Shown here: positions 13,694 through 27,778 of the stretch, in pieces
Layout: each line of letters begins with the position of its first letter
How positions within the stretch are numbered: position 1 is the first letter of the stretch
Source: a virus
IMG/VR virus record: IMGVR_UViG_3300044609_000595
Coordinates: 1-64,000 of that record
Length of the DNA: 64,000 bases
Reading direction: 5' to 3' (one strand)
Notes under the pieces: model-generated
What the model was told of the DNA's origin: nothing
What the model saw: only the letters and a program-made list of their open reading frames with translations
The model's database searches: none
Program-made: the position numbers and the translations under genes

Positions 13694-13702
13694 AAAAATA
13701 TT

Positions 13703-13787
13703 GGAAGTGTGGCCGAGTGGTTGAAGGCACTTGTCTTGAAAACAAGCAACGTGAAAGCGTTCGTGGGTTCGAATCCTACCACTTCCG
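13703..13787 (+). tRNA. tRNA-Ser (TGA)
   Basis: GGAAGTG/CACTTCC acceptor stem, CTTGT-CTTGAAA-ACAAG anticodon arm, long variable arm, GTTCGAATC. Confidence 0.95.
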
Positions 13788-13805
13788 TTCAACTTAAAAC
13801 CTTAA

Positions 13806-14084: not shown

Positions 14085-14946
14085 AGTTAAAAACATGGAT
14101 GCTTTTTCGCAAGCATTGATACAGTCTGTAGTGTATCATCTTGGTGAAGAAGGAATCCCTTCATTACAAAAGAAAGGTAATGAAGATGATTTCTCGAAGA
14201 AAGATCCTAAGGCAAAAGCTGCTCCTGCTGATCCAGCAATCAACATTGCTGCTGGTACTGGAACGAAGCAATCTCATGGTGCCGAAATCGAATACACAAC
14301 TGTAAAAACTAAAGATGTTCAGCGTGAAGAAGCTGAACTAGAAGAAGCTAAAAATAAAGAAGGTAAGGAACAAGGTGCTGATGGCAAAGCTTGCTGGAAA
14401 GGTTACAAGTATGCTGGCACTGAAAAAGGTAAAGACAAGTGTGTGAAGGAAGAAGACGAGAGCAAGGCAGAAGAAGAAAAAGAAAAGAAGATGAGTAAGT
14501 CTGCTAAGGAAAAGCACGAGAAGGCTGAGGATAAAGCAGAAAAGAAAGCAGGCATGAAGGAGCAAGTAACTCTCCAGGACATCGTTGAGAAGGCTGTGAG
14601 CAAGTCTCAGCAAAGATTTATGGGTATGGTTCACGCCAAGAAGAAGGGTGAAATGAAAGGTGGTTCAGAAGAAGTTAAGAAAGCTGCTGCTTCAATGACT
14701 GGCAAAGAAGCAGAGAAGTTTGCTTCCACTAAGCACAAAGGTCTTCCTGAGAAAAAGAAAACTAATGAAGCACTTGATCCAGTAGGCAAGGAAGATGCTG
14801 ATGTAAATAATGATGGTAAGACCGACAATCAAGACAAGTTCCTCAAAGGTCGTCGTTCAAAAGTTAGCAAGATTATTGCTGCCAAAAAGAAAGTTGATGA
14901 AATGATTGCTTTGGAACAGGAGATTATTGCTGAAAAAAAGCAGTGA
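14059..14946 (+). CDS. Charged modular protein, probably head-internal or prohead-associated
   Basis: K/E-rich, with short modules (CWKGY, AVSKSQQRFMGMV, LDPVGKEDADVNNDG) separated by Glu-rich joints; ATAAATA upstream. Confidence 0.6.
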   Translation: MERQKATTEVKNMDAFSQALIQSVVYHLGEEGIPSLQKKGNEDDFSKKDPKAKAAPADPAINIAAGTGTKQSHGAEIEYTTVKTKDVQREEAELEEAKNKEGKEQGADGKACWKGYKYAGTEKGKDKCVKEEDESKAEEEKEKKMSKSAKEKHEKAEDKAEKKAGMKEQVTLQDIVEKAVSKSQQRFMGMVHAKKKGEMKGGSEEVKKAAASMTGKEAEKFASTKHKGLPEKKKTNEALDPVGKEDADVNNDGKTDNQDKFLKGRRSKVSKIIAAKKKVDEMIALEQEIIAEKKQ

Positions 14947-22301: not shown

Positions 22302-22343
22302 AATATAATAGATAAATACCTCCAGTGATGGGGGTATTTTTTT

Positions 22344-22691
22344 ATGCGTGTACAATCAGCTAAAGCAAAAGGACGTAGATTACAGCAGTGGGTGAGAGAT
22401 AAACTCATTGAAATGCTTGATGTTCATCCAGAAGATATTGAAAGCAGATCTATGGGTGCTGGCGGCGAGGATCTTATTATGGCAAGAGCTGCCAGACAAA
22501 AGTTTCCCCATAGTATTGAATGTAAGAACGTTGAAAAACTAAATATTTGGGATGCCTATGAGCAAGCATCTGCCAACTGTGGTGACTACGAACCGCTTGT
22601 TGTCATCAAAAAGAATGGTAAGAAACCATTAGTTGTTATAGATGCAGAGTATTACATTCAATTATTCGGAGACAAAGATGACAAGAATTGA
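22344..22691 (+). CDS. PD-(D/E)XK endonuclease, Holliday-junction-resolvase-like
   Basis: KAKGRRLQ, GEDLI and IECKN. Confidence 0.7.
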   Translation: MRVQSAKAKGRRLQQWVRDKLIEMLDVHPEDIESRSMGAGGEDLIMARAARQKFPHSIECKNVEKLNIWDAYEQASANCGDYEPLVVIKKNGKKPLVVIDAEYYIQLFGDKDDKN

Positions 22692-23373
22692 TTTACATAA
22701 CTTCTTCAAACATTTTGATGAGAACAATCCAAAGCATGTTGCTGCAGTAGAGCAACTTGAGATTGATATGAAAGATTCTCCTCTACTTGAGGATACATCT
22801 AATTGGGTCAGAATTTATAGAACACAACCAGACAAACCAAAATCATCAATTCTTGTTGTGCCTTTCTATCCACAGACAGACAATTACAGAGATGCTGACC
22901 GCACTTGTAACAGTTCTTCTTGTGCGATGTGTCTCGAATATTTTAAACCAGGCACATTAAAAGGATCTAAGGGCGATGATGCTTATGTTCAAAAAGTATT
23001 TTCAATTGGAGATACCACAGATCACTTAGTTCAAACCCGTGCTCTTGCGTCGTATGGTATTAAATCCGATTTCTCTTATAGCCTTTCTTTTACTGATCTT
23101 GATAGAGAGCTTGCCGCTGGCAGACCTATTGTTATTGGTATTCTTCATAGAGGTTCTTTATCTGCTCCCACAGGCGGGCACATGGTAGTAGTTATTGGAA
23201 AGACTGCTTCTGGTGATTACGTCGTGAACGACCCCTACGGCAGCCTTAACGACGGCTATACTGGTTCGGTAGGGAATGGCAAGGGAGCTGTCTACAAACG
23301 CTCTGAGCTGGCTCGTAGGTGGTGCCCAGGAGGTAATGATGGATGGGGTAGAATCTTCGACGCAAAAAAGTAG
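22678..23373 (+). CDS. C39-like cysteine peptidase (endolysin N-terminal part)
   Basis: Q...CNSSSCAM, GGHMVVVIG and VNDPYG catalytic motifs; GGAG RBS before ATG 22678. Confidence 0.8.
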   Translation: MTRIDLHNFFKHFDENNPKHVAAVEQLEIDMKDSPLLEDTSNWVRIYRTQPDKPKSSILVVPFYPQTDNYRDADRTCNSSSCAMCLEYFKPGTLKGSKGDDAYVQKVFSIGDTTDHLVQTRALASYGIKSDFSYSLSFTDLDRELAAGRPIVIGILHRGSLSAPTGGHMVVVIGKTASGDYVVNDPYGSLNDGYTGSVGNGKGAVYKRSELARRWCPGGNDGWGRIFDAKK

Positions 23374-23858
23374 ATTCAACACCACAACACAATCAAAAAA
23401 TTCCTCAAAGTGGTGTTGATTTAATTAAAGAATTCGAGGGATGTCATTTACATTCATACCCAGATCCTAAAACTGGGGGAGACCCCATTACAATTGGGTG
23501 GGGAAGTACCAGAGATTTTAATGGAACTTCATTTAAACTTGGTAAAAAGATCACTCAAGAATATGCTGATAGACTTTTAATATTTGATATTGAAAATAGA
23601 TTTTTACCTACGTTAGAAAAAATTCCGTACTGGGGAGAGATGAATGACAATCAAAGGGGGACTTTACTTTGCTTTGCTTACAATCTTGGTGCAGATTTCT
23701 ATGGTTCTTCTGACTTCAATACTATTACACGGACATTAAAAAATAAAGAATGGTCTAAAGTACCTGATGCTCTTTATTTTTATAGAAATCCTGGTAGTAA
23801 TGTGGAAGCAGGATTAGCAAGAAGAAGAAAAGCTGAAGGAAAACTTTGGATAAGTTAG
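23370..23858 (+). CDS. GH24 phage lysozyme domain with no start codon, in the -1 frame of the C39 gene
   Basis: Manual translation gives IKEFEGCHLHSYPDPKTGGDPITIGWGST...FAYNLG...GLARRRKAE, continuous with ORF 23640..23858. Confidence 0.85.
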   Translation, partial: VDSTPQHNQKIPQSGVDLIKEFEGCHLHSYPDPKTGGDPITIGWGSTRDFNGTSFKLGKKITQEYADRLLIFDIENRFLPTLEKIPYWGEMNDNQRGTLLCFAYNLGADFYGSSDFNTITRTLKNKEWSKVPDALYFYRNPGSNVEAGLARRRKAEGKLWIS

Positions 23859-24100
23859 TCTTCCATCTTTGCTTTTAATCCAAGTAATGCTGTAAAGATA
23901 GTAAACAAAGCACTATACCCTTTATCTATAGAGTTCTCGCACTTTATAGATGGGGGGTTTTTTAATTTGCCTTTGGCATTGGCGCTTTCGATAGATCCAG
24001 GGACCATAAAATTACAATTAACAAAAGTAATTCCGACATATCCTACGGTACAAACTACAACGATGAGGATTAACTTGTCTAAAAGTTTAATGTTTTTCAT
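23855..24100 (-). CDS. Small membrane protein with two hydrophobic segments
   Basis: LILIVVVCTVGYVGITFV and ALFTIFTALLGL. Confidence 0.6.
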   Translation of the reverse strand: MKNIKLLDKLILIVVVCTVGYVGITFVNCNFMVPGSIESANAKGKLKNPPSIKCENSIDKGYSALFTIFTALLGLKAKMED

Positions 24101-24483: not shown

Positions 24484-24846
24484 ATGCTTTTTAAAACTTT
24501 TTCGATTATCGCCATTGCCGCTGCAGGACTAGCACCCCTTCAAGCAAAGGCAGCGAGCGGATGTTCCCTCGCCTCTCATTATGGAATCGGTGATGGATAT
24601 CACGGGCAGACAACTGCCAATGGCGAAAGATACAATGCTTATGGAAAATCGGTAGCACATAAGTGGTTGCCATTCGGAACAAAGTTGAGAGTGACTAATC
24701 AACGAAATGGCAAATCTGTAATTGTGCGTGTGAATGATCGTGGTCCCTATGTAGGTGGTAGAGATCTAGATTTGTCTTATGGAGCATTTTCCACCATTGC
24801 AAATCCTGGACAAGGTGTAGCCAGCATCTGCTATTCACGGGTCTGA
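24484..24846 (+). CDS. RlpA-like DPBB lytic transglycosylase with signal peptide
   Basis: ASHYG, TANGERY, AHKWLPFGT, VRVNDRGPY and DLSYGAF. Confidence 0.9.
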   Translation: MLFKTFSIIAIAAAGLAPLQAKAASGCSLASHYGIGDGYHGQTTANGERYNAYGKSVAHKWLPFGTKLRVTNQRNGKSVIVRVNDRGPYVGGRDLDLSYGAFSTIANPGQGVASICYSRV

Positions 24847-25296: not shown

Positions 25297-25370
25297 GTCT
25301 CGGTAGCTCAGTTGGATAGAGCATCTGCCTTCTAAGCAGTTGGTCACAGGTTCAAGTCCTGTCCGAGACG
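25297..25370 (+). tRNA. tRNA-Arg (TCT)
   Basis: GTCTCGG/CCGAGAC acceptor stem; anticodon loop CTTCTAA. Confidence 0.95.
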
Positions 25371-25374
25371 CCTT

Positions 25375-25446
25375 GGGCGATTAACTCAGCGGTAGAGTGC
25401 CTCCTTTACACGGAGATGGTCACTGGTTCGAATCCAGTATCGCCCA
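25375..25446 (+). tRNA. tRNA-Val (TAC)
   Basis: GGGCGAT/ATCGCCC acceptor stem; anticodon loop TTTACAC. Confidence 0.95.
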
Positions 25447-25514
25447 TTACATTAATAAATAAACCATGGAAGAAATTCAAAATGAATTGAAAGATATCAA
25501 AAGGATGTTGAACG

Positions 25515-25769
25515 ATGTTAATAGTCAGATGCAAGAATTGCGGGAAGCAATTAGAGGAGCACCCTTCCCAACTCAGATGCTGCCAATGCCCCAACCTTAC
25601 GAGCATCCGTGGTGGCAATATCAGCGGAGTGGACCTGTCATTGGTAGAAATTATCAGTGGAGCCAAGTCCAAGCGTCAGGATCAATCAATCTTGACGAAA
25701 CAGGATCTACAGTTTCAGGAGCAGCGAAAGCAGCGTAAAGTTCGTAAATTGGATTTTGAAATAAGATGA
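25515..25769 (+). CDS. Small Cys-rich (zinc-ribbon-like) protein
   Basis: CKNCG...CCQCPN. Confidence 0.7.
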   Translation: MLIVRCKNCGKQLEEHPSQLRCCQCPNLTSIRGGNISGVDLSLVEIISGAKSKRQDQSILTKQDLQFQEQRKQRKVRKLDFEIR

Positions 25770-25878
25770 GACATTTGATTGTCACCATGATGGAGAACCC
25801 ACTATTAGTATCGCTAATGGGTTCTCTATTGATCATTCCCCCGATCTGTGGTATCATGATCATACATCGGAAACCTAA

Positions 25879-25952
25879 CGGAATGTAGCTCAGTTTGGTA
25901 GAGCACTCGCTTTGGGAGCGAGATGTCGCAGGTTCGAATCCTGTCATTCCGA
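25879..25952 (+). tRNA. tRNA-Pro (TGG)
   Basis: CGGAATG/CATTCCG acceptor stem; CTCGC-TTTGGGA-GCGAG anticodon arm. Confidence 0.95.
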
Positions 25953-25970
25953 TTGTCATTATGACATACC

Positions 25971-26165
25971 ATGATTGAAATCACACAAAAAGAATTTGAA
26001 GACAACTTCGATGCTTATATGGATCGAGTTGAAAAAGATAAAGAATTATTTTTAATTCGAATGCCCGATGGTCGTGGGGTTGTAATGACTCCAGTTGAAG
26101 ACGATCTAAAAGATTTATTTGACAATGTTATTGAGGAAAATTATGTCCCTGAAATCACAGATTGA
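25971..26165 (+). CDS. Phd/YefM antitoxin-like small protein
   Basis: ITQKEFEDNFDAYMDRVE...FLIRMPDGRGVVMTP resembles the Phd N-terminal fold. Confidence 0.5.
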   Translation: MIEITQKEFEDNFDAYMDRVEKDKELFLIRMPDGRGVVMTPVEDDLKDLFDNVIEENYVPEITD

Positions 26166-26385
26166 AACAGCAAAAGATTCTGTAAGTAAAGCACTTATTA
26201 CAGCACTTCAAGATAAAAACGAAACTGCCGTCAGTGATTTGTTTGATGCTTATAATAAACTTGTAAGTATTCAAATTACCGAAACAAATAAAACTGTATT
26301 TTCTATTGGTGATTATACTATTCCCACCAATTATTATGGCAGTTCTATGAGTGATGATGTAATTTCATTCACTGGTCTGGGCTAG
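26143..26385 (+). CDS. Hypothetical protein
   Basis: MSLKSQIE start with GAGG RBS. Confidence 0.6.
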   Translation: MSLKSQIETAKDSVSKALITALQDKNETAVSDLFDAYNKLVSIQITETNKTVFSIGDYTIPTNYYGSSMSDDVISFTGLG

Positions 26386-26429
26386 ACTTTAAACTTGCTC
26401 TGGTGGAGTCAACTTACCCTCTGTAGATT

Positions 26430-26630
26430 ATGCTGGCAGTTAATATGAGATTTGTCGAAGAACTCGACAATGAAGATAAAGTGATTACTTATTACAGCGT
26501 GAAAGAGATTGACAAAAAATTCTACTACGTGTATAATGATGTCAATCACGGTCCTTACGAGGACTTTGATGCTGCTGTTGAAGCAGCTTATGAAGATTTA
26601 ATTCTTCATTTAGACATGGAGAGTCTCTAA
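26430..26630 (+). CDS. Hypothetical acidic protein
   Basis: 66-aa ORF containing an internal consensus promoter. Confidence 0.5.
   Translation: MLAVNMRFVEELDNEDKVITYYSVKEIDKKFYYVYNDVNHGPYEDFDAAVEAAYEDLILHLDMESL
26509..26537 (+). promoter_or_regulatory. Perfect sigma70 consensus promoter
   Basis: TTGACA N17 TATAAT, upstream of the manA-like RNA, tRNA-Gly and the porin. Confidence 0.75.
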
Positions 26631-26778
26631 AAACCCTGGTCGGGAAACCCCCTCGATGAGTTTCCAATTTCTCTAAAAAATTGGTGGTGCGGATGGGGAA
26701 TTCTTTCTCCGCCTGGTTTCTTGCTTCCAGTCAAAAAGCAAGTGGCGAGCCTGCTCACGGGGACTGACCTCCCCACCC
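26612..26778 (+). ncRNA. manA-like RNA motif
   Basis: Two tandem H-type pseudoknots (GAG/CTC with CCAATT/AATTGG; CTGG/CCAG with CTTGCT/AGCAAG), each followed by TGGYG, next to a tRNA. Family assignment is from memory. Confidence 0.7.
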
Positions 26779-26779
26779 T

Positions 26780-26851
26780 GCGGTTGTAGTTCAGTGGTAG
26801 AACGCTATCCTTCCAAGTTAGATGTCGCCCGTTCGAATCGGGTCAGCCGCT
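26780..26851 (+). tRNA. tRNA-Gly (TCC)
   Basis: GCGGTTG/CAGCCGC acceptor stem; anticodon loop CTTCCAA. Confidence 0.92.
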
Positions 26852-26899
26852 TGCCCATTTTTTGGGCAGATTAAACTTATAGTTAATGTTAAGAATACT

Positions 26900-27778
26900 A
26901 TGATGATTCGTTCGTTTATTGCTGCCGCTGCAGTTGCTGCTACTGCTGCTCCTGCTATGGCACAAGTGACCAGTGTAAAGCAACTGAGTGATGTTCAACC
27001 GACTCAGTGGTCGTATCAAGCAATCACCAATCTGGTTGAGCGTTATGGTTGTGTTGCTGGTTATCCCAATGGCACCTTTCAGCCTGGTCAACCTGCTACC
27101 CGTGCTGAGCTTGCTGCTCTGACTAATGCTTGTCTGGATCGCATTACTGAGTTCCAAAGTGCTGCTGATGCTGCTCTTGCTGCTGCTCTCCGTGCTGAGT
27201 TTGCTAAAGAAATTGGTGCTACTAATGCTCGTGTGACTGCTCTGGAAGTTGCTGCTGCTCAAAAAGCACAAGGCGTGGGCAACTATCTGGGTGCTGGTGT
27301 GCTACTGAACCAACAAGGTGTTGACGGCAACGGTTATGATGCTGAACGTACTATCGCTGGTGGTACTGTTCAAGGTCGTTATGCTGTGAAGACTTTCAGT
27401 AATCAGAATGCTGTTGCTGTTCGTCCTTATGCTAATTTCGTTGGCACTCCTGCTGGCGAAATCGGTGCTGCTGGTGGTGCTCTGCTGTCTTATGACTGGA
27501 GTATCGCTCGTGCCGCTTCTGGTGTGAGTCGTGCTAACATCTACACTGGTGTTGGTTATCAGATTCCTTTCGTGAATAACACCGACGCTAACTTCCAGTC
27601 CGCTGTGGGTGATCGTGGTCAAGTTGTTCTCGCTCTGGGTATCGAAGGTCGTCTGACCAACTCTCTGGTTGGTTTTGCTGATCTGAAGTTCCCCACCACC
27701 AATGCTGCTAATAGCTATGGTGCTACCAACGGAACTTATTCTCCTGTGTTCACCACTGGTCTCGGATTCAAGTTCTGA
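26900..27778 (+). CDS. SLH-domain outer-membrane beta-barrel protein (cyanobacterial porin-like N-terminus)
   Basis: Signal peptide, SDVQPTQWSYQAITNLVERYGCVAGYP SLH motif, coiled coil, amphipathic strands and terminal GLGFKF. Confidence 0.8.
   Translation: MMIRSFIAAAAVAATAAPAMAQVTSVKQLSDVQPTQWSYQAITNLVERYGCVAGYPNGTFQPGQPATRAELAALTNACLDRITEFQSAADAALAAALRAEFAKEIGATNARVTALEVAAAQKAQGVGNYLGAGVLLNQQGVDGNGYDAERTIAGGTVQGRYAVKTFSNQNAVAVRPYANFVGTPAGEIGAAGGALLSYDWSIARAASGVSRANIYTGVGYQIPFVNNTDANFQSAVGDRGQVVLALGIEGRLTNSLVGFADLKFPTTNAANSYGATNGTYSPVFTTGLGFKF

What the first reader, a model, noticed from the sequence alone, without database searches (positions are those of the whole stretch)
22678..23858. 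Lysozyme with no start codon: -1 frameshift producing a C39 peptidase-GH24 lysozyme fusion
Seen: the C39 peptidase ends GCA AAA AAG TAG, giving the heptamer A_AAA_AAG (23364-70) right before its stop. The -1 frame is open from 23352 to 23858 and encodes a complete lysozyme, including the catalytic region EFEGCHLHSYPD...ITIGWG. That frame has no ATG, GTG or TTG before 23640, which lies downstream of the catalytic residues. A short linker (VDSTPQHNQK) follows the shift site. Established: A_AAA_AAG is the dnaX/IS-type bacterial slippery site. Inference: two lysin forms (about 231 aa and about 393 aa) are made at a fixed ratio, so recoding controls the dose of muramidase.
Basis: partly seen in the sequence, partly recalled or inferred. 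Interest (0 to 1): 0.85.

Follow-up and report, generated by a model that had tools for sequence, protein, structure and literature searches.

The report
Frameshift-made peptidase-lysozyme lysin in cyanophage
In this T4-like cyanophage, in the lab phages S-PM2 and S-CAM7 and in dozens of uncultured relatives, a lysozyme with no start codon is most likely made only when ribosomes slip back one base at the end of a peptidase gene, so one locus gives a short peptidase and a long peptidase-lysozyme that current annotations miss.

Summary
A 231-aa C39-like peptidase ORF (22678-23373) ends GCA AAA AAG TAG. A complete GH24 lysozyme lies in the -1 frame and has no ATG/GTG/TTG before its catalytic Glu.

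It is not an assembly error. Across 57 loci (S-PM2, deposited twice, metagenome contigs and this window) the lysozyme sits in the -1 frame behind an in-register A_AAA_AAG placed 0 or 3 nt before the stop. The two Lys codons are AAA and AAG in 46 of 46 distinct sequences, while 11 other conserved Lys columns mix both codons. None of 24 relatives that lack the lysozyme has the heptamer.

A 9-14 bp stem-loop follows 2-8 nt downstream (window z = -5.1). It occurs in at least four unrelated sequence versions and shows compensatory changes. S-CAM7 uses T_TTT_TTT plus its own stem, apparently an independent origin. Three contigs with one extra A encode exactly the predicted fusion.

No protein has been looked at, and the ratio of the two forms is unknown.

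This scan has reached the same conclusion before on at least seven other genomes. I found no published report of it.

The parts
22678..23373 (+). 0-frame ORF of 231 aa (short product). It has an N-terminal three-helix module of about 48 aa (22678-22821) and a papain-like C39-type cysteine peptidase (Pfam stretch residues 61-187). Catalytic Cys77 is codon 22906-08 and His168 is codon 23179-81. The start overlaps the end of the upstream RusA-like ORF (22344-22691).
   Evidence: In a 109-sequence alignment Q66, C77, H168 and D185 are invariant. The AF2 model has pLDDT 91.7. Foldseek hits are C39 and papain-like peptidases. The N-module is 58% identical to the N-terminus of the separate lysozyme gene of phage DSL-LC02.
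23364..23370 (+). Slippery heptamer A_AAA_AAG, in register with the 0 frame (GCA AAA AAG).
   Evidence: It is invariant in 57 loci that have the -1 arrangement. K230 is AAA in 46/46 and K231 is AAG in 46/46 sequences, while 11 other conserved Lys columns mix AAA and AAG. It is absent from 24/24 C39-only relatives.
23371..23373 (+). 0-frame stop codon TAG, directly after the heptamer.
   Evidence: A stop directly follows the heptamer in 44 of 51 loci, and follows one codon later in 7.
23373..23422 (+). 3' stem-loop S1. The 5' arm is 23373-23385 and the 3' arm is 23410-23422. The 10-bp core is 23376-23385 with 23410-23419 and starts 5-6 nt after the heptamer. The 5' arm lies in the variable linker. 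The 3' arm lies in the codons for S-G-V-D-L just before IKEFEG.
   Evidence: strand folding gives -14.4 kcal/mol, z = -5.1, with 0/200 shuffles as good. RNAalifold on 17 type-A sequences gives 14 pairs, 4 with compensatory double changes. In that set 96.9% of cells are paired, against 36-49% when the partner is slid.
23400..23442 (+). Possible pseudoknot stem S2. Loop bases ATTCCTC (23400-23406) could pair with GAGGGAT (23436-23442, the E-G codons of EFEG).
   Evidence: In the type-A alignment 96.6% of cells are paired, but only one-sided (wobble) changes occur. The complementarity beats shuffled loops only in the type-A clade, plus L017 and marginally L082, and not in stem types B and C. It is therefore optional and unproven.
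23370..23858 (+). -1 frame part of the long product (162 aa plus stop). It comprises the linker VDSTPQHNQKIPQSG and a GH24 lysozyme, with the catalytic Glu at 23436-38 and the stop TAG at 23856-58. The long product is residues 1-231 plus these 162, giving 393 aa.
   Evidence: PF00959 matches at 23427-23837 and is the only PF00959 match in the 110-kb record. PDB relatives are GH24 lysozymes and endolysins, and the EG motif aligns.
23917..23968 (+). Intrinsic-terminator-like hairpin plus T-run that closes the unit. Another lies at 22314-22339 upstream of the RusA-like ORF.

Best explanation
This is a programmed -1 ribosomal frameshift cassette of the dnaX/IS3 type. Most ribosomes translating the C39-like peptidase ORF stop at TAG 23371 and release a 231-aa protein made of the N-module and a cysteine peptidase. 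A fraction pause on the stem-loop that begins 5-6 nt downstream. At that point the P- and A-site tRNAs sit on AAA AAG, slip back one base on A_AAA_AAG, and continue in the -1 frame through a short linker into the GH24 lysozyme. The result is a 393-aa protein of N-module, peptidase and muramidase. The lysozyme has no translation start of its own, so it is made only as this fusion. The two cell-wall hydrolase forms therefore appear in a ratio set by the RNA signals. Shown: the anatomy, its conservation, suppression of synonymous change at the heptamer, the covarying stem, and its association with the absence of an own start codon. Inferred: that slippage happens on the ribosome, how efficient it is, and what the two forms do.
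For: 1. Conservation. S-PM2 (73% nt identity) has GAT GCA AAA AAG TAA with the lysozyme in the -1 frame. Its 2005 and 2015 records are identical at this site.
2. Breadth. 51 loci in 45 distinct 600-nt contexts carry the in-register heptamer 0 or 3 nt before the stop. The codon before it is GTA, GCA, GAA or ACA, so the amino acid changes but the third-position A is kept. In 34 loci the two frames overlap by only 13 nt. 26 loci have no ATG/GTG/TTG before the catalytic Glu. Six more loci were found.
3. Synonymous sites. The two Lys codons are AAA then AAG in 46/46 sequences, against mixed usage in 11 other conserved Lys columns. In-frame marine relatives vary these codons freely.
4. Association. 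0 of 24 C39-only relatives have the heptamer.
5. Downstream structure. In 40 distinct start-less junctions the segment from heptamer to catalytic Glu has median z = -3.8, with 87.5% below -2. Control segments from the gene bodies have medians of +0.5 and +0.15. The five variants with their own ATGA/GTGA start score +1.0 to -2.3. At least four unrelated stem sequences occupy the same place, and compensatory changes occur within type A.
6. A second origin. The S-CAM7 clade uses T_TTT_TTT plus its own stem, seen in 3 isolates and 2 contigs, and nests within in-frame fusions.
7. Natural fusions. Contigs with one extra A read ...FDVKKVENSTPS..., which is the predicted junction.
8. Decoding. Five small photosynthetic genomes of the phylum have tRNA-Lys(UUU), and no tRNA-Lys(CUU) was found in them. 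This is the condition under which A_AAA_AAG is most shift-prone in E. coli (PMC5009743).
Against: No protein, ribosome-profiling or reporter data exist for any member. Reads for this metagenomic contig could not be inspected. No SD-like 5' stimulator at dnaX spacing is evident; the nearest G-rich run encodes the conserved GWGR motif. The host is unknown. Six relatives, including S-SRM01, keep the heptamer but also have an ATGA or GTGA start for the lysozyme, so the heptamer can persist without being strictly required. A run of six A (or eight T in S-CAM7) could also support some RNA-polymerase slippage.
Confidence: 0.85

Rival explanations
1. Transcriptional slippage. RNA polymerase adds one A on the A6 run (or one U on the U8 run of S-CAM7). 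A subset of mRNAs then encodes the fusion in frame, and ribosomes do not slip.
For: Homopolymer runs are present in every case. DNA variants with one more A exist. Thermus dnaX works this way (PMC5009743). The T8 run of S-CAM7 is long enough to be plausible.
Against: The run is always in X_XXY_YYZ register and always ends in G. A synonymous AAA would lengthen the run and should be favoured under polymerase slippage, yet AAG is found in 46/46 sequences. A covarying stem at the spacing typical of ribosomal stimulators accompanies the site, and it weakens when the lysozyme has its own start. Six A is short for efficient bacterial polymerase slippage (my knowledge).
Confidence: 0.07
2. The lysozyme is translated on its own, either from a non-canonical start (for example ATT at 23400-02) or by reinitiation after the TAG. 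The two enzymes would then be separate proteins.
For: Some relatives do have ATGA or GTGA overlap starts (S-SRM01, L040, L055, L062, L083, L087). The Ile-Pro codons are conserved.
Against: 26 loci have no ATG/GTG/TTG at all, and no Shine-Dalgarno sequence is evident. This model explains neither the invariance of the heptamer nor the stem. Where the lysozyme is a separate gene (DSL-LC02) it carries its own copy of the N-module. Here that module can reach the lysozyme only through the fusion.
Confidence: 0.04
3. The break is an assembly or sequencing indel, or a decaying pseudogene. The true gene would be an in-frame fusion, or the lysozyme would be dead.
For: The window comes from a metagenome-assembled virus record. 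Homopolymers are error-prone. Three contigs carry A7.
Against: 45 distinct contexts from many samples, two S-PM2 records and three S-CAM7 isolates share the out-of-frame state. The lysozyme frame stays open with its catalytic motif in all of them. The stem covaries.
Confidence: 0.02
4. DNA-level phase variation. Replication slippage between A6 and A7 switches a phage lineage between making the peptidase only and making the fusion only.
For: A7 rows (L058, L061, L060) nest among A6 rows in the tree and keep the stem.
Against: A6 dominates strongly (57 loci against 3). Phase variation needs neither the in-register G-terminated heptamer nor a stem. It could coexist with frameshifting but does not replace it.
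Confidence: 0.02

Closest known systems
E. coli dnaX tau/gamma -1 frameshift, and the 'reversed' dnaX of some bacteria (PMC5009743)
   Same: It uses the same heptamer A_AAA_AAG and a 3' stem-loop about 6 nt downstream. Two products share an N-terminus, and the likely hosts have a single tRNA-Lys(UUU). In the reversed dnaX form the long product comes from the shift and the 0-frame stop directly follows the site, as it does here.
   Different: No SD-like 5' stimulator is seen here. The gene class differs (a cell-wall hydrolase rather than a polymerase subunit). The stem sequence turns over between clades. The efficiency is unknown.
IS3-family orfA/orfAB (IS911, IS150) and phage lambda gpG/gpGT -1 frameshifts (PMC5009743)
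   Same: The shift occurs at the end of an upstream ORF and fuses it to a start-less downstream ORF. This gives a short product and a long product with different activities.
   Different: Those systems make transposase or tail-assembly chaperones. Lambda uses G_GGA_AAG and needs no strong stem. IS911 uses a three-way junction.
Two-product endolysin genes that use an internal start codon (enterococcal Lys170, clostridial CTP1L/CD27L; from my own knowledge, not retrieved here)
   Same: One lysin gene yields two nested polypeptides in a set ratio, and these act together.
   Different: Those products share the C-terminus (extra cell-wall-binding domains) and arise by internal initiation. Here the products share the N-terminus and arise by recoding.
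Predicted -1 frameshift between endolysin gene 39 and internal virion protein gene 40 of Alteromonas podovirus vB_AspP-H4/4 (PMC5658483)
   Same: It is a slippery sequence at the end of a phage lysin gene, and it is proposed from sequence only.
   Different: The downstream product there is an internal virion protein rather than a second catalytic domain. No comparative or structural evidence was given.
In-frame C39-GH24 fusions of marine cyanomyoviruses (ACG-2014f, phrog_3617) and permuted GH24-C39 proteins (S-CREM1, phrog_10051)
   Same: They have the same domains and the same N-module, and are homologous proteins.
   Different: They are made by ordinary translation of one ORF. They have no conserved heptamer, and their Lys codons vary freely.

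Membership tests
Programmed -1 ribosomal frameshift cassette (dnaX/IS3 type) | Slippery heptamer X_XXY_YYZ in register with the upstream frame, inside the overlap of the two frames | tested here: met
   A_AAA_AAG lies at 23364-70 in register. The same holds in 57 loci. In 34 of 51 loci the overlap is only 13 nt.
Programmed -1 ribosomal frameshift cassette (dnaX/IS3 type) | The downstream ORF is in the -1 frame, is functional, and lacks its own initiation signal | tested here: met
   The profile match to PF00959 is complete. There is no ATG/GTG/TTG before the catalytic Glu in the window or in 25 other loci.
Programmed -1 ribosomal frameshift cassette (dnaX/IS3 type) | 3' stimulatory RNA structure about 5-9 nt after the heptamer | tested here: met
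   The window scores z = -5.1. The median is z = -3.8 in 40 junctions, against about 0 in controls. Covariation is seen. All of this is computational, with no structure probing.
Programmed -1 ribosomal frameshift cassette (dnaX/IS3 type) | Phylogenetic conservation of the signals beyond what the protein sequence requires | tested here: met
   The Lys codons are invariant in 46/46 sequences, against mixed usage elsewhere. The heptamer is absent from 24/24 C39-only genes. The stem arms change together across four sequence types.
Programmed -1 ribosomal frameshift cassette (dnaX/IS3 type) | 5' Shine-Dalgarno-like stimulator about 10 nt upstream (a dnaX feature, not universal) | tested here: inconclusive
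   No GGAGG-like element is seen at that spacing. The upstream G-run encodes GWGR.
Programmed -1 ribosomal frameshift cassette (dnaX/IS3 type) | Both protein products are observed, with the junction peptide | not testable with these tools
   No proteomic data are available. No report was found in the paper library.
GH24 phage lysozyme (PF00959) | Profile match above the curated cut-off, with the catalytic Glu of the E-x8-D-x5-T region | tested here: met
   The score is 72 bits against a cut-off of 22.3. The region EFEGCHLHSYPDPKTGGDPITIG aligns to solved GH24 lysozymes.
Peptidase C39-like, clan CA papain fold (PF13529) | Profile match, papain-like fold and a Gln/Cys/His/Asp catalytic set | tested here: met
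   The score is 49 bits against a cut-off of 24. Q66, C77, H168 and D185 are invariant in 109 sequences. The model has pLDDT 91.7 and its best folds are PCAT1, ComA, 3erv and PeiR.
Bacteriocin-processing C39 peptidases (double-glycine leader, fused to ABC exporters) | Fusion to, or neighbourhood of, an ABC transporter and a double-glycine substrate | tested here: not met
   Relatives are instead fused to GH24, GH108 with PG_binding_3, GH19 or Amidase_2. This points to a peptidoglycan peptidase module. The substrate bond has not been determined.

The most novel reading that the evidence does not exclude
The frameshift may be a tunable control rather than a fixed-ratio device. Its efficiency would respond to the state of the infected cell, for example temperature, polyamines, tRNA-Lys modification or translation rate acting on the stem or pseudoknot. 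The muramidase-bearing form would then accumulate only late or under certain conditions and help time lysis. One-base A6/A7 changes would invert the ratio between lineages: in the A7 contigs the 0 frame gives the fusion and the -1 frame stops after 11 codons.
Probability: 0.12. Interest if true: 0.8.

Novelty: new member of a known kind. Interest (0 to 1): 0.62.

Why it matters
How T4-like cyanophages lyse their hosts is poorly understood. In the model phages S-PM2 and S-CAM7 the lysozyme is annotated as a 72-90 aa fragment that lacks its catalytic residues. If the frameshift is real, three things follow.

- The true lysin is a 393-aa two-enzyme protein made alongside a peptidase-only form. 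Annotations of many cyanophage genomes and metagenomes need correcting.
- Recoding would be shown to set the stoichiometry of a lysis enzyme. I found no described case of this use.
- The system offers a natural series for studying how frameshift signals evolve. It includes two different heptamers, at least four stem versions, an optional pseudoknot, variants with their own start and weak stems, and one-base in-frame derivatives.

It can be tested directly in a culturable phage-host pair.

Tried and rejected
- **Inverse dnaX idea for ACG-2014f.** Its in-frame fusion contains GCA AAA AAG, a GC hairpin and an immediate -1 stop. I considered a dnaX-like shift that would make the short form. Eight related in-frame contigs do not conserve the heptamer, so I rejected it.
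- **A universal pseudoknot.** The loop-to-EFEG pairing is significant only in the clade that includes the window, and it shows no double changes. I keep it as optional.
- **One alignment across all stem types.** MAFFT plus RNAalifold gave no structure because loop lengths differ and the stems are not homologous. I analysed each type separately instead.
- **AF2 model of a natural in-frame fusion.** With L058 and a 9-sequence alignment the mean pLDDT was 56, too poor to use.
- **PDB sequence search with the peptidase.** No hit at E <= 1. The fold search succeeded instead.
- **Finding the host through the SLH-porin-like ORF.** This returned only one weak hit, in a filamentous cyanobacterium.
- **tRNA-Lys(CUU) in small genomes.** A first look seemed to show tRNA-Lys(CUU) in small genomes of the phylum. 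Those genomes lack psbA and are non-photosynthetic. The photosynthetic small genomes lack it.
- **Literature searches.** Searches for a published description found none.

Full report
**Observation.**
The sequence is as described. An ORF starting at ATG 22678 overlaps the end of a RusA-like ORF and ends GAC GCA AAA AAG TAG at 23373. The heptamer A_AAA_AAG occupies 23364-23370 in X_XXY_YYZ register. The -1 frame is open from 23352 to 23858, and its first ATG/GTG/TTG is at 23640.

Pfam assigns Peptidase_C39_2 to the first ORF. It assigns a full-length Phage_lysozyme (GH24) match to the -1 frame. PHROG family 3617, 405 positions long, covers both halves end to end, so relatives exist as single proteins. 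The window is part of a 110-kb metagenome-assembled virus record, and this is its only lysozyme match. The heptamer by itself is frequent here (47 copies), so the case rests on comparison with other genomes.

**Relatives.**
The nearest isolate, S-PM2 (73% nt identity), has the same layout: GAT GCA AAA AAG TAA, with the lysozyme in the -1 frame. That lysozyme is annotated only as a 72-aa 'putative lysin' starting at an internal ATG. The 2005 record and the 2015 S-PM2d record are identical at this site.

A scan of IMG/VR with the peptidase returned 80 loci, and a second scan with the S-CAM7 protein returned 25. Classification by tblastn and frame tracing gave the following:

| Junction class | Loci |
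|---|---|
| Lysozyme directly downstream in the -1 frame, behind in-register A_AAA_AAG | 57 |
| of which also have an ATGA or GTGA start | 6 |
| T_TTT_TTT instead of A_AAA_AAG (S-CAM7 clade) | 3 |
| Ordinary in-frame fusions (marine, ACG-2014f-like) | 9 |
| In-frame with exactly one more A | 3 |
| Permuted lysozyme-peptidase | 2 |
| ATGA coupling without the heptamer, or separate genes | 5 |
| Peptidase only | 24 |

In the first 51 loci (45 distinct 600-nt contexts):
- The codon before AAA AAG is GTA (24), GCA (23), GAA (2) or ACA (2).
- The stop follows at once in 44 and after one codon in 7.
- The two frames overlap by only 13 nt in 34, so the shift can occur nowhere else.
- 26 have no ATG/GTG/TTG before the catalytic Glu.

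**Constraint beyond the protein.**
In 46 distinct sequences the two Lys codons are AAA then AAG without exception. Eleven other conserved Lys columns in the same genes all mix the two codons. The in-frame marine fusions use AAG AAG, CAG AAG and others at the equivalent place. None of the 24 peptidase-only genes has the heptamer near its end. The closest relative of the window's peptidase, L009, simply lacks the lysozyme.

**RNA structure.**
The window folds into a stem whose 10-bp core (23376-85 with 23410-19) starts 5-6 nt after the heptamer, at -14.4 kcal/mol and z = -5.1.

Across 40 distinct start-less junctions, the segment from heptamer to catalytic Glu has median z = -3.8, with 87.5% below -2. 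Equal-length control segments from the peptidase and lysozyme bodies have medians of +0.5 and +0.15, with 2% below -2. The five variants with their own start score +1.0 to -2.3.

The 5' arm lies in the variable linker. The 3' arm lies in the codons just before IKEFEG. At least four unrelated arm sequences occur. Consensus stems have 14, 9 and 10 pairs. In the window's type, 4 pairs show compensatory double changes, and 96.9% of cells pair against 36-49% for slid partners.

A second pairing could form a pseudoknot: loop ATTCCTC (23400-06) with GAGGGAT (23436-42). It is supported only in this clade and only by wobble changes.

**Independent origin.**
S-CAM7 (three isolates) and two contigs end GTT TTT TTT CCA CAG TAG. 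The lysozyme is in the -1 frame, and an 8-bp stem follows 5 nt later, with a G-U-compatible change in L089. In a quick tree this clade nests with full support inside the in-frame marine fusions. All A_AAA_AAG rows lie on the other side of the deepest split (inner branches are weak and the root is arbitrary).

The three in-frame 'A7' rows nest among A6 rows, keep the stem, and read ...FDVKKVENSTPS.... This shows that the predicted fusion junction is a viable protein. In these A7 variants a -1 slip would stop after 11 codons, so one base may invert which form is the major one. The review PMC5009743 notes this possibility for dnaX.

**Decoding.**
PMC5009743 states two relevant things:
- A_AAA_AAG is far more shift-prone in E. 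coli than A_AAA_AAA or U_UUU_UUU.
- About half of bacteria have a single tRNA-Lys for both AAA and AAG.

A pattern for tRNA-Lys(UUU) hit 195 of 201 genomes of the phylum. A pattern for CUU hit 163. The five small CUU-bearing genomes that I checked lack psbA, so they are non-photosynthetic. Five photosynthetic genomes of 1.7-2.7 Mb have tRNA-Lys(UUU), confirmed by ARAGORN. No tRNA-Lys(CUU) was found in them even with a loose pattern. The window's own tRNAs include no Lys.

**The proteins.**
The peptidase belongs to a large family, with 1069 representatives at E <= 0.001. Q66, C77, H168 and D185 are invariant in it. A confident model (pLDDT 91.7) matches C39 and papain-like folds: PCAT1, ComA, 3erv, Alr0975 and the pseudomurein endoisopeptidase PeiR. 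Family members are fused to GH24, GH108 with PG_binding_3, GH19 or Amidase_2. I therefore read it as a peptidoglycan peptidase module, not a bacteriocin-leader protease. The lysozyme aligns to solved GH24 enzymes and has the catalytic Glu.

The first 48 residues or so form a three-helix module. In phage DSL-LC02 the two enzymes are separate genes, and this module heads both of them, with 58% identity to the window's copy. That fits a lysozyme which here acquires the module only through the fusion. The gene is flanked by terminator-like sites, and an RlpA-like lipoprotein gene follows it.

**Verdict.**
A programmed -1 ribosomal frameshift is the best explanation (0.85). The rivals are transcriptional slippage, independent initiation, an artefact and DNA phase variation. 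None of them accounts for three features together: the in-register G-terminated heptamer, the covarying stem, and the weakening of that stem where a start codon exists. None is formally excluded without protein or cDNA data.

The mechanism is textbook. Its use to build a two-enzyme lysin appears undescribed in the library I could search. The nearest case is a one-line prediction in an Alteromonas phage announcement (PMC5658483). This scan had already reached the same conclusion on at least seven other genomes, and my tests were run independently of those notes.

Noticed in passing
window 14934-14940: Another A_AAA_AAG lies at the end of an ORF. AAAAAAG is over-represented in the window as a whole: 47 copies against 32 expected, with 0 of 100 shuffles reaching 47.
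   Followed up: no
L058, L061 and L060 (junction near 2185-2200 in each): These contigs are in-frame fusions that differ from the frameshift type by exactly one extra A (GTA AAA AAA GTA GAA), and they keep the stem. Here the 0 frame gives the fusion and a -1 slip would stop after 11 codons, which may invert the ratio. They could also be homopolymer errors.
   Followed up: partly
L002 (S-SRM01), L040, L055, L062, L083, L087: These variants keep A_AAA_AAG but add one codon and an ATGA or GTGA overlap start for the lysozyme. Their downstream stems are weak (z +1.0 to -2.3). They may be intermediates between frameshifting and translational coupling.
   Followed up: partly
L001 2457-2675 (S-PM2p157); L006 2245-2517 (S-CAM7 'lysin'): GenBank and RefSeq annotate the lysozyme as a 72-90 aa fragment starting at an internal ATG downstream of the catalytic residues. 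In S-PM2 the stretch between the two CDS is left unannotated.
   Followed up: yes
window 24484-24846: An RlpA-like (DPBB) lipoprotein gene with a signal peptide lies just downstream. It is conserved next to the lysin locus in S-PM2, S-SZBM1 and L009. Together with the lysin it looks like a small cell-wall module.
   Followed up: no
window 25297-26851 and 13702-13788: The phage encodes tRNA genes: Arg(UCU), Val(UAC), Pro(UGG), Gly(UCC) and Ser(UGA). There is no tRNA-Lys.
   Followed up: no
window 26822-27778: An SLH-domain porin-like ORF sits in the phage contig. Among 185,579 species genomes, the pattern-seeded scan confirmed only one weak relative (38% identity over 82 residues, in a filamentous cyanobacterium).
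   Followed up: partly
L004 1310-3011 (phage DSL-LC02); L059, L073 and L074: Where the peptidase and lysozyme are separate genes, the lysozyme gene carries an N-terminal extension of its own. In DSL-LC02 this is the same ~48-aa module as on the peptidase. In L059, L073 and L074 it is a different 65-70 aa extension.
   Followed up: partly
genomes G088, G201, G040, G177, G025 (phylum of G001): Small (1.8-2.2 Mb) non-photosynthetic members of the phylum match the tRNA-Lys(CUU) pattern, confirmed by ARAGORN in three of the five. The small photosynthetic genomes checked carry only tRNA-Lys(UUU).
   Followed up: partly
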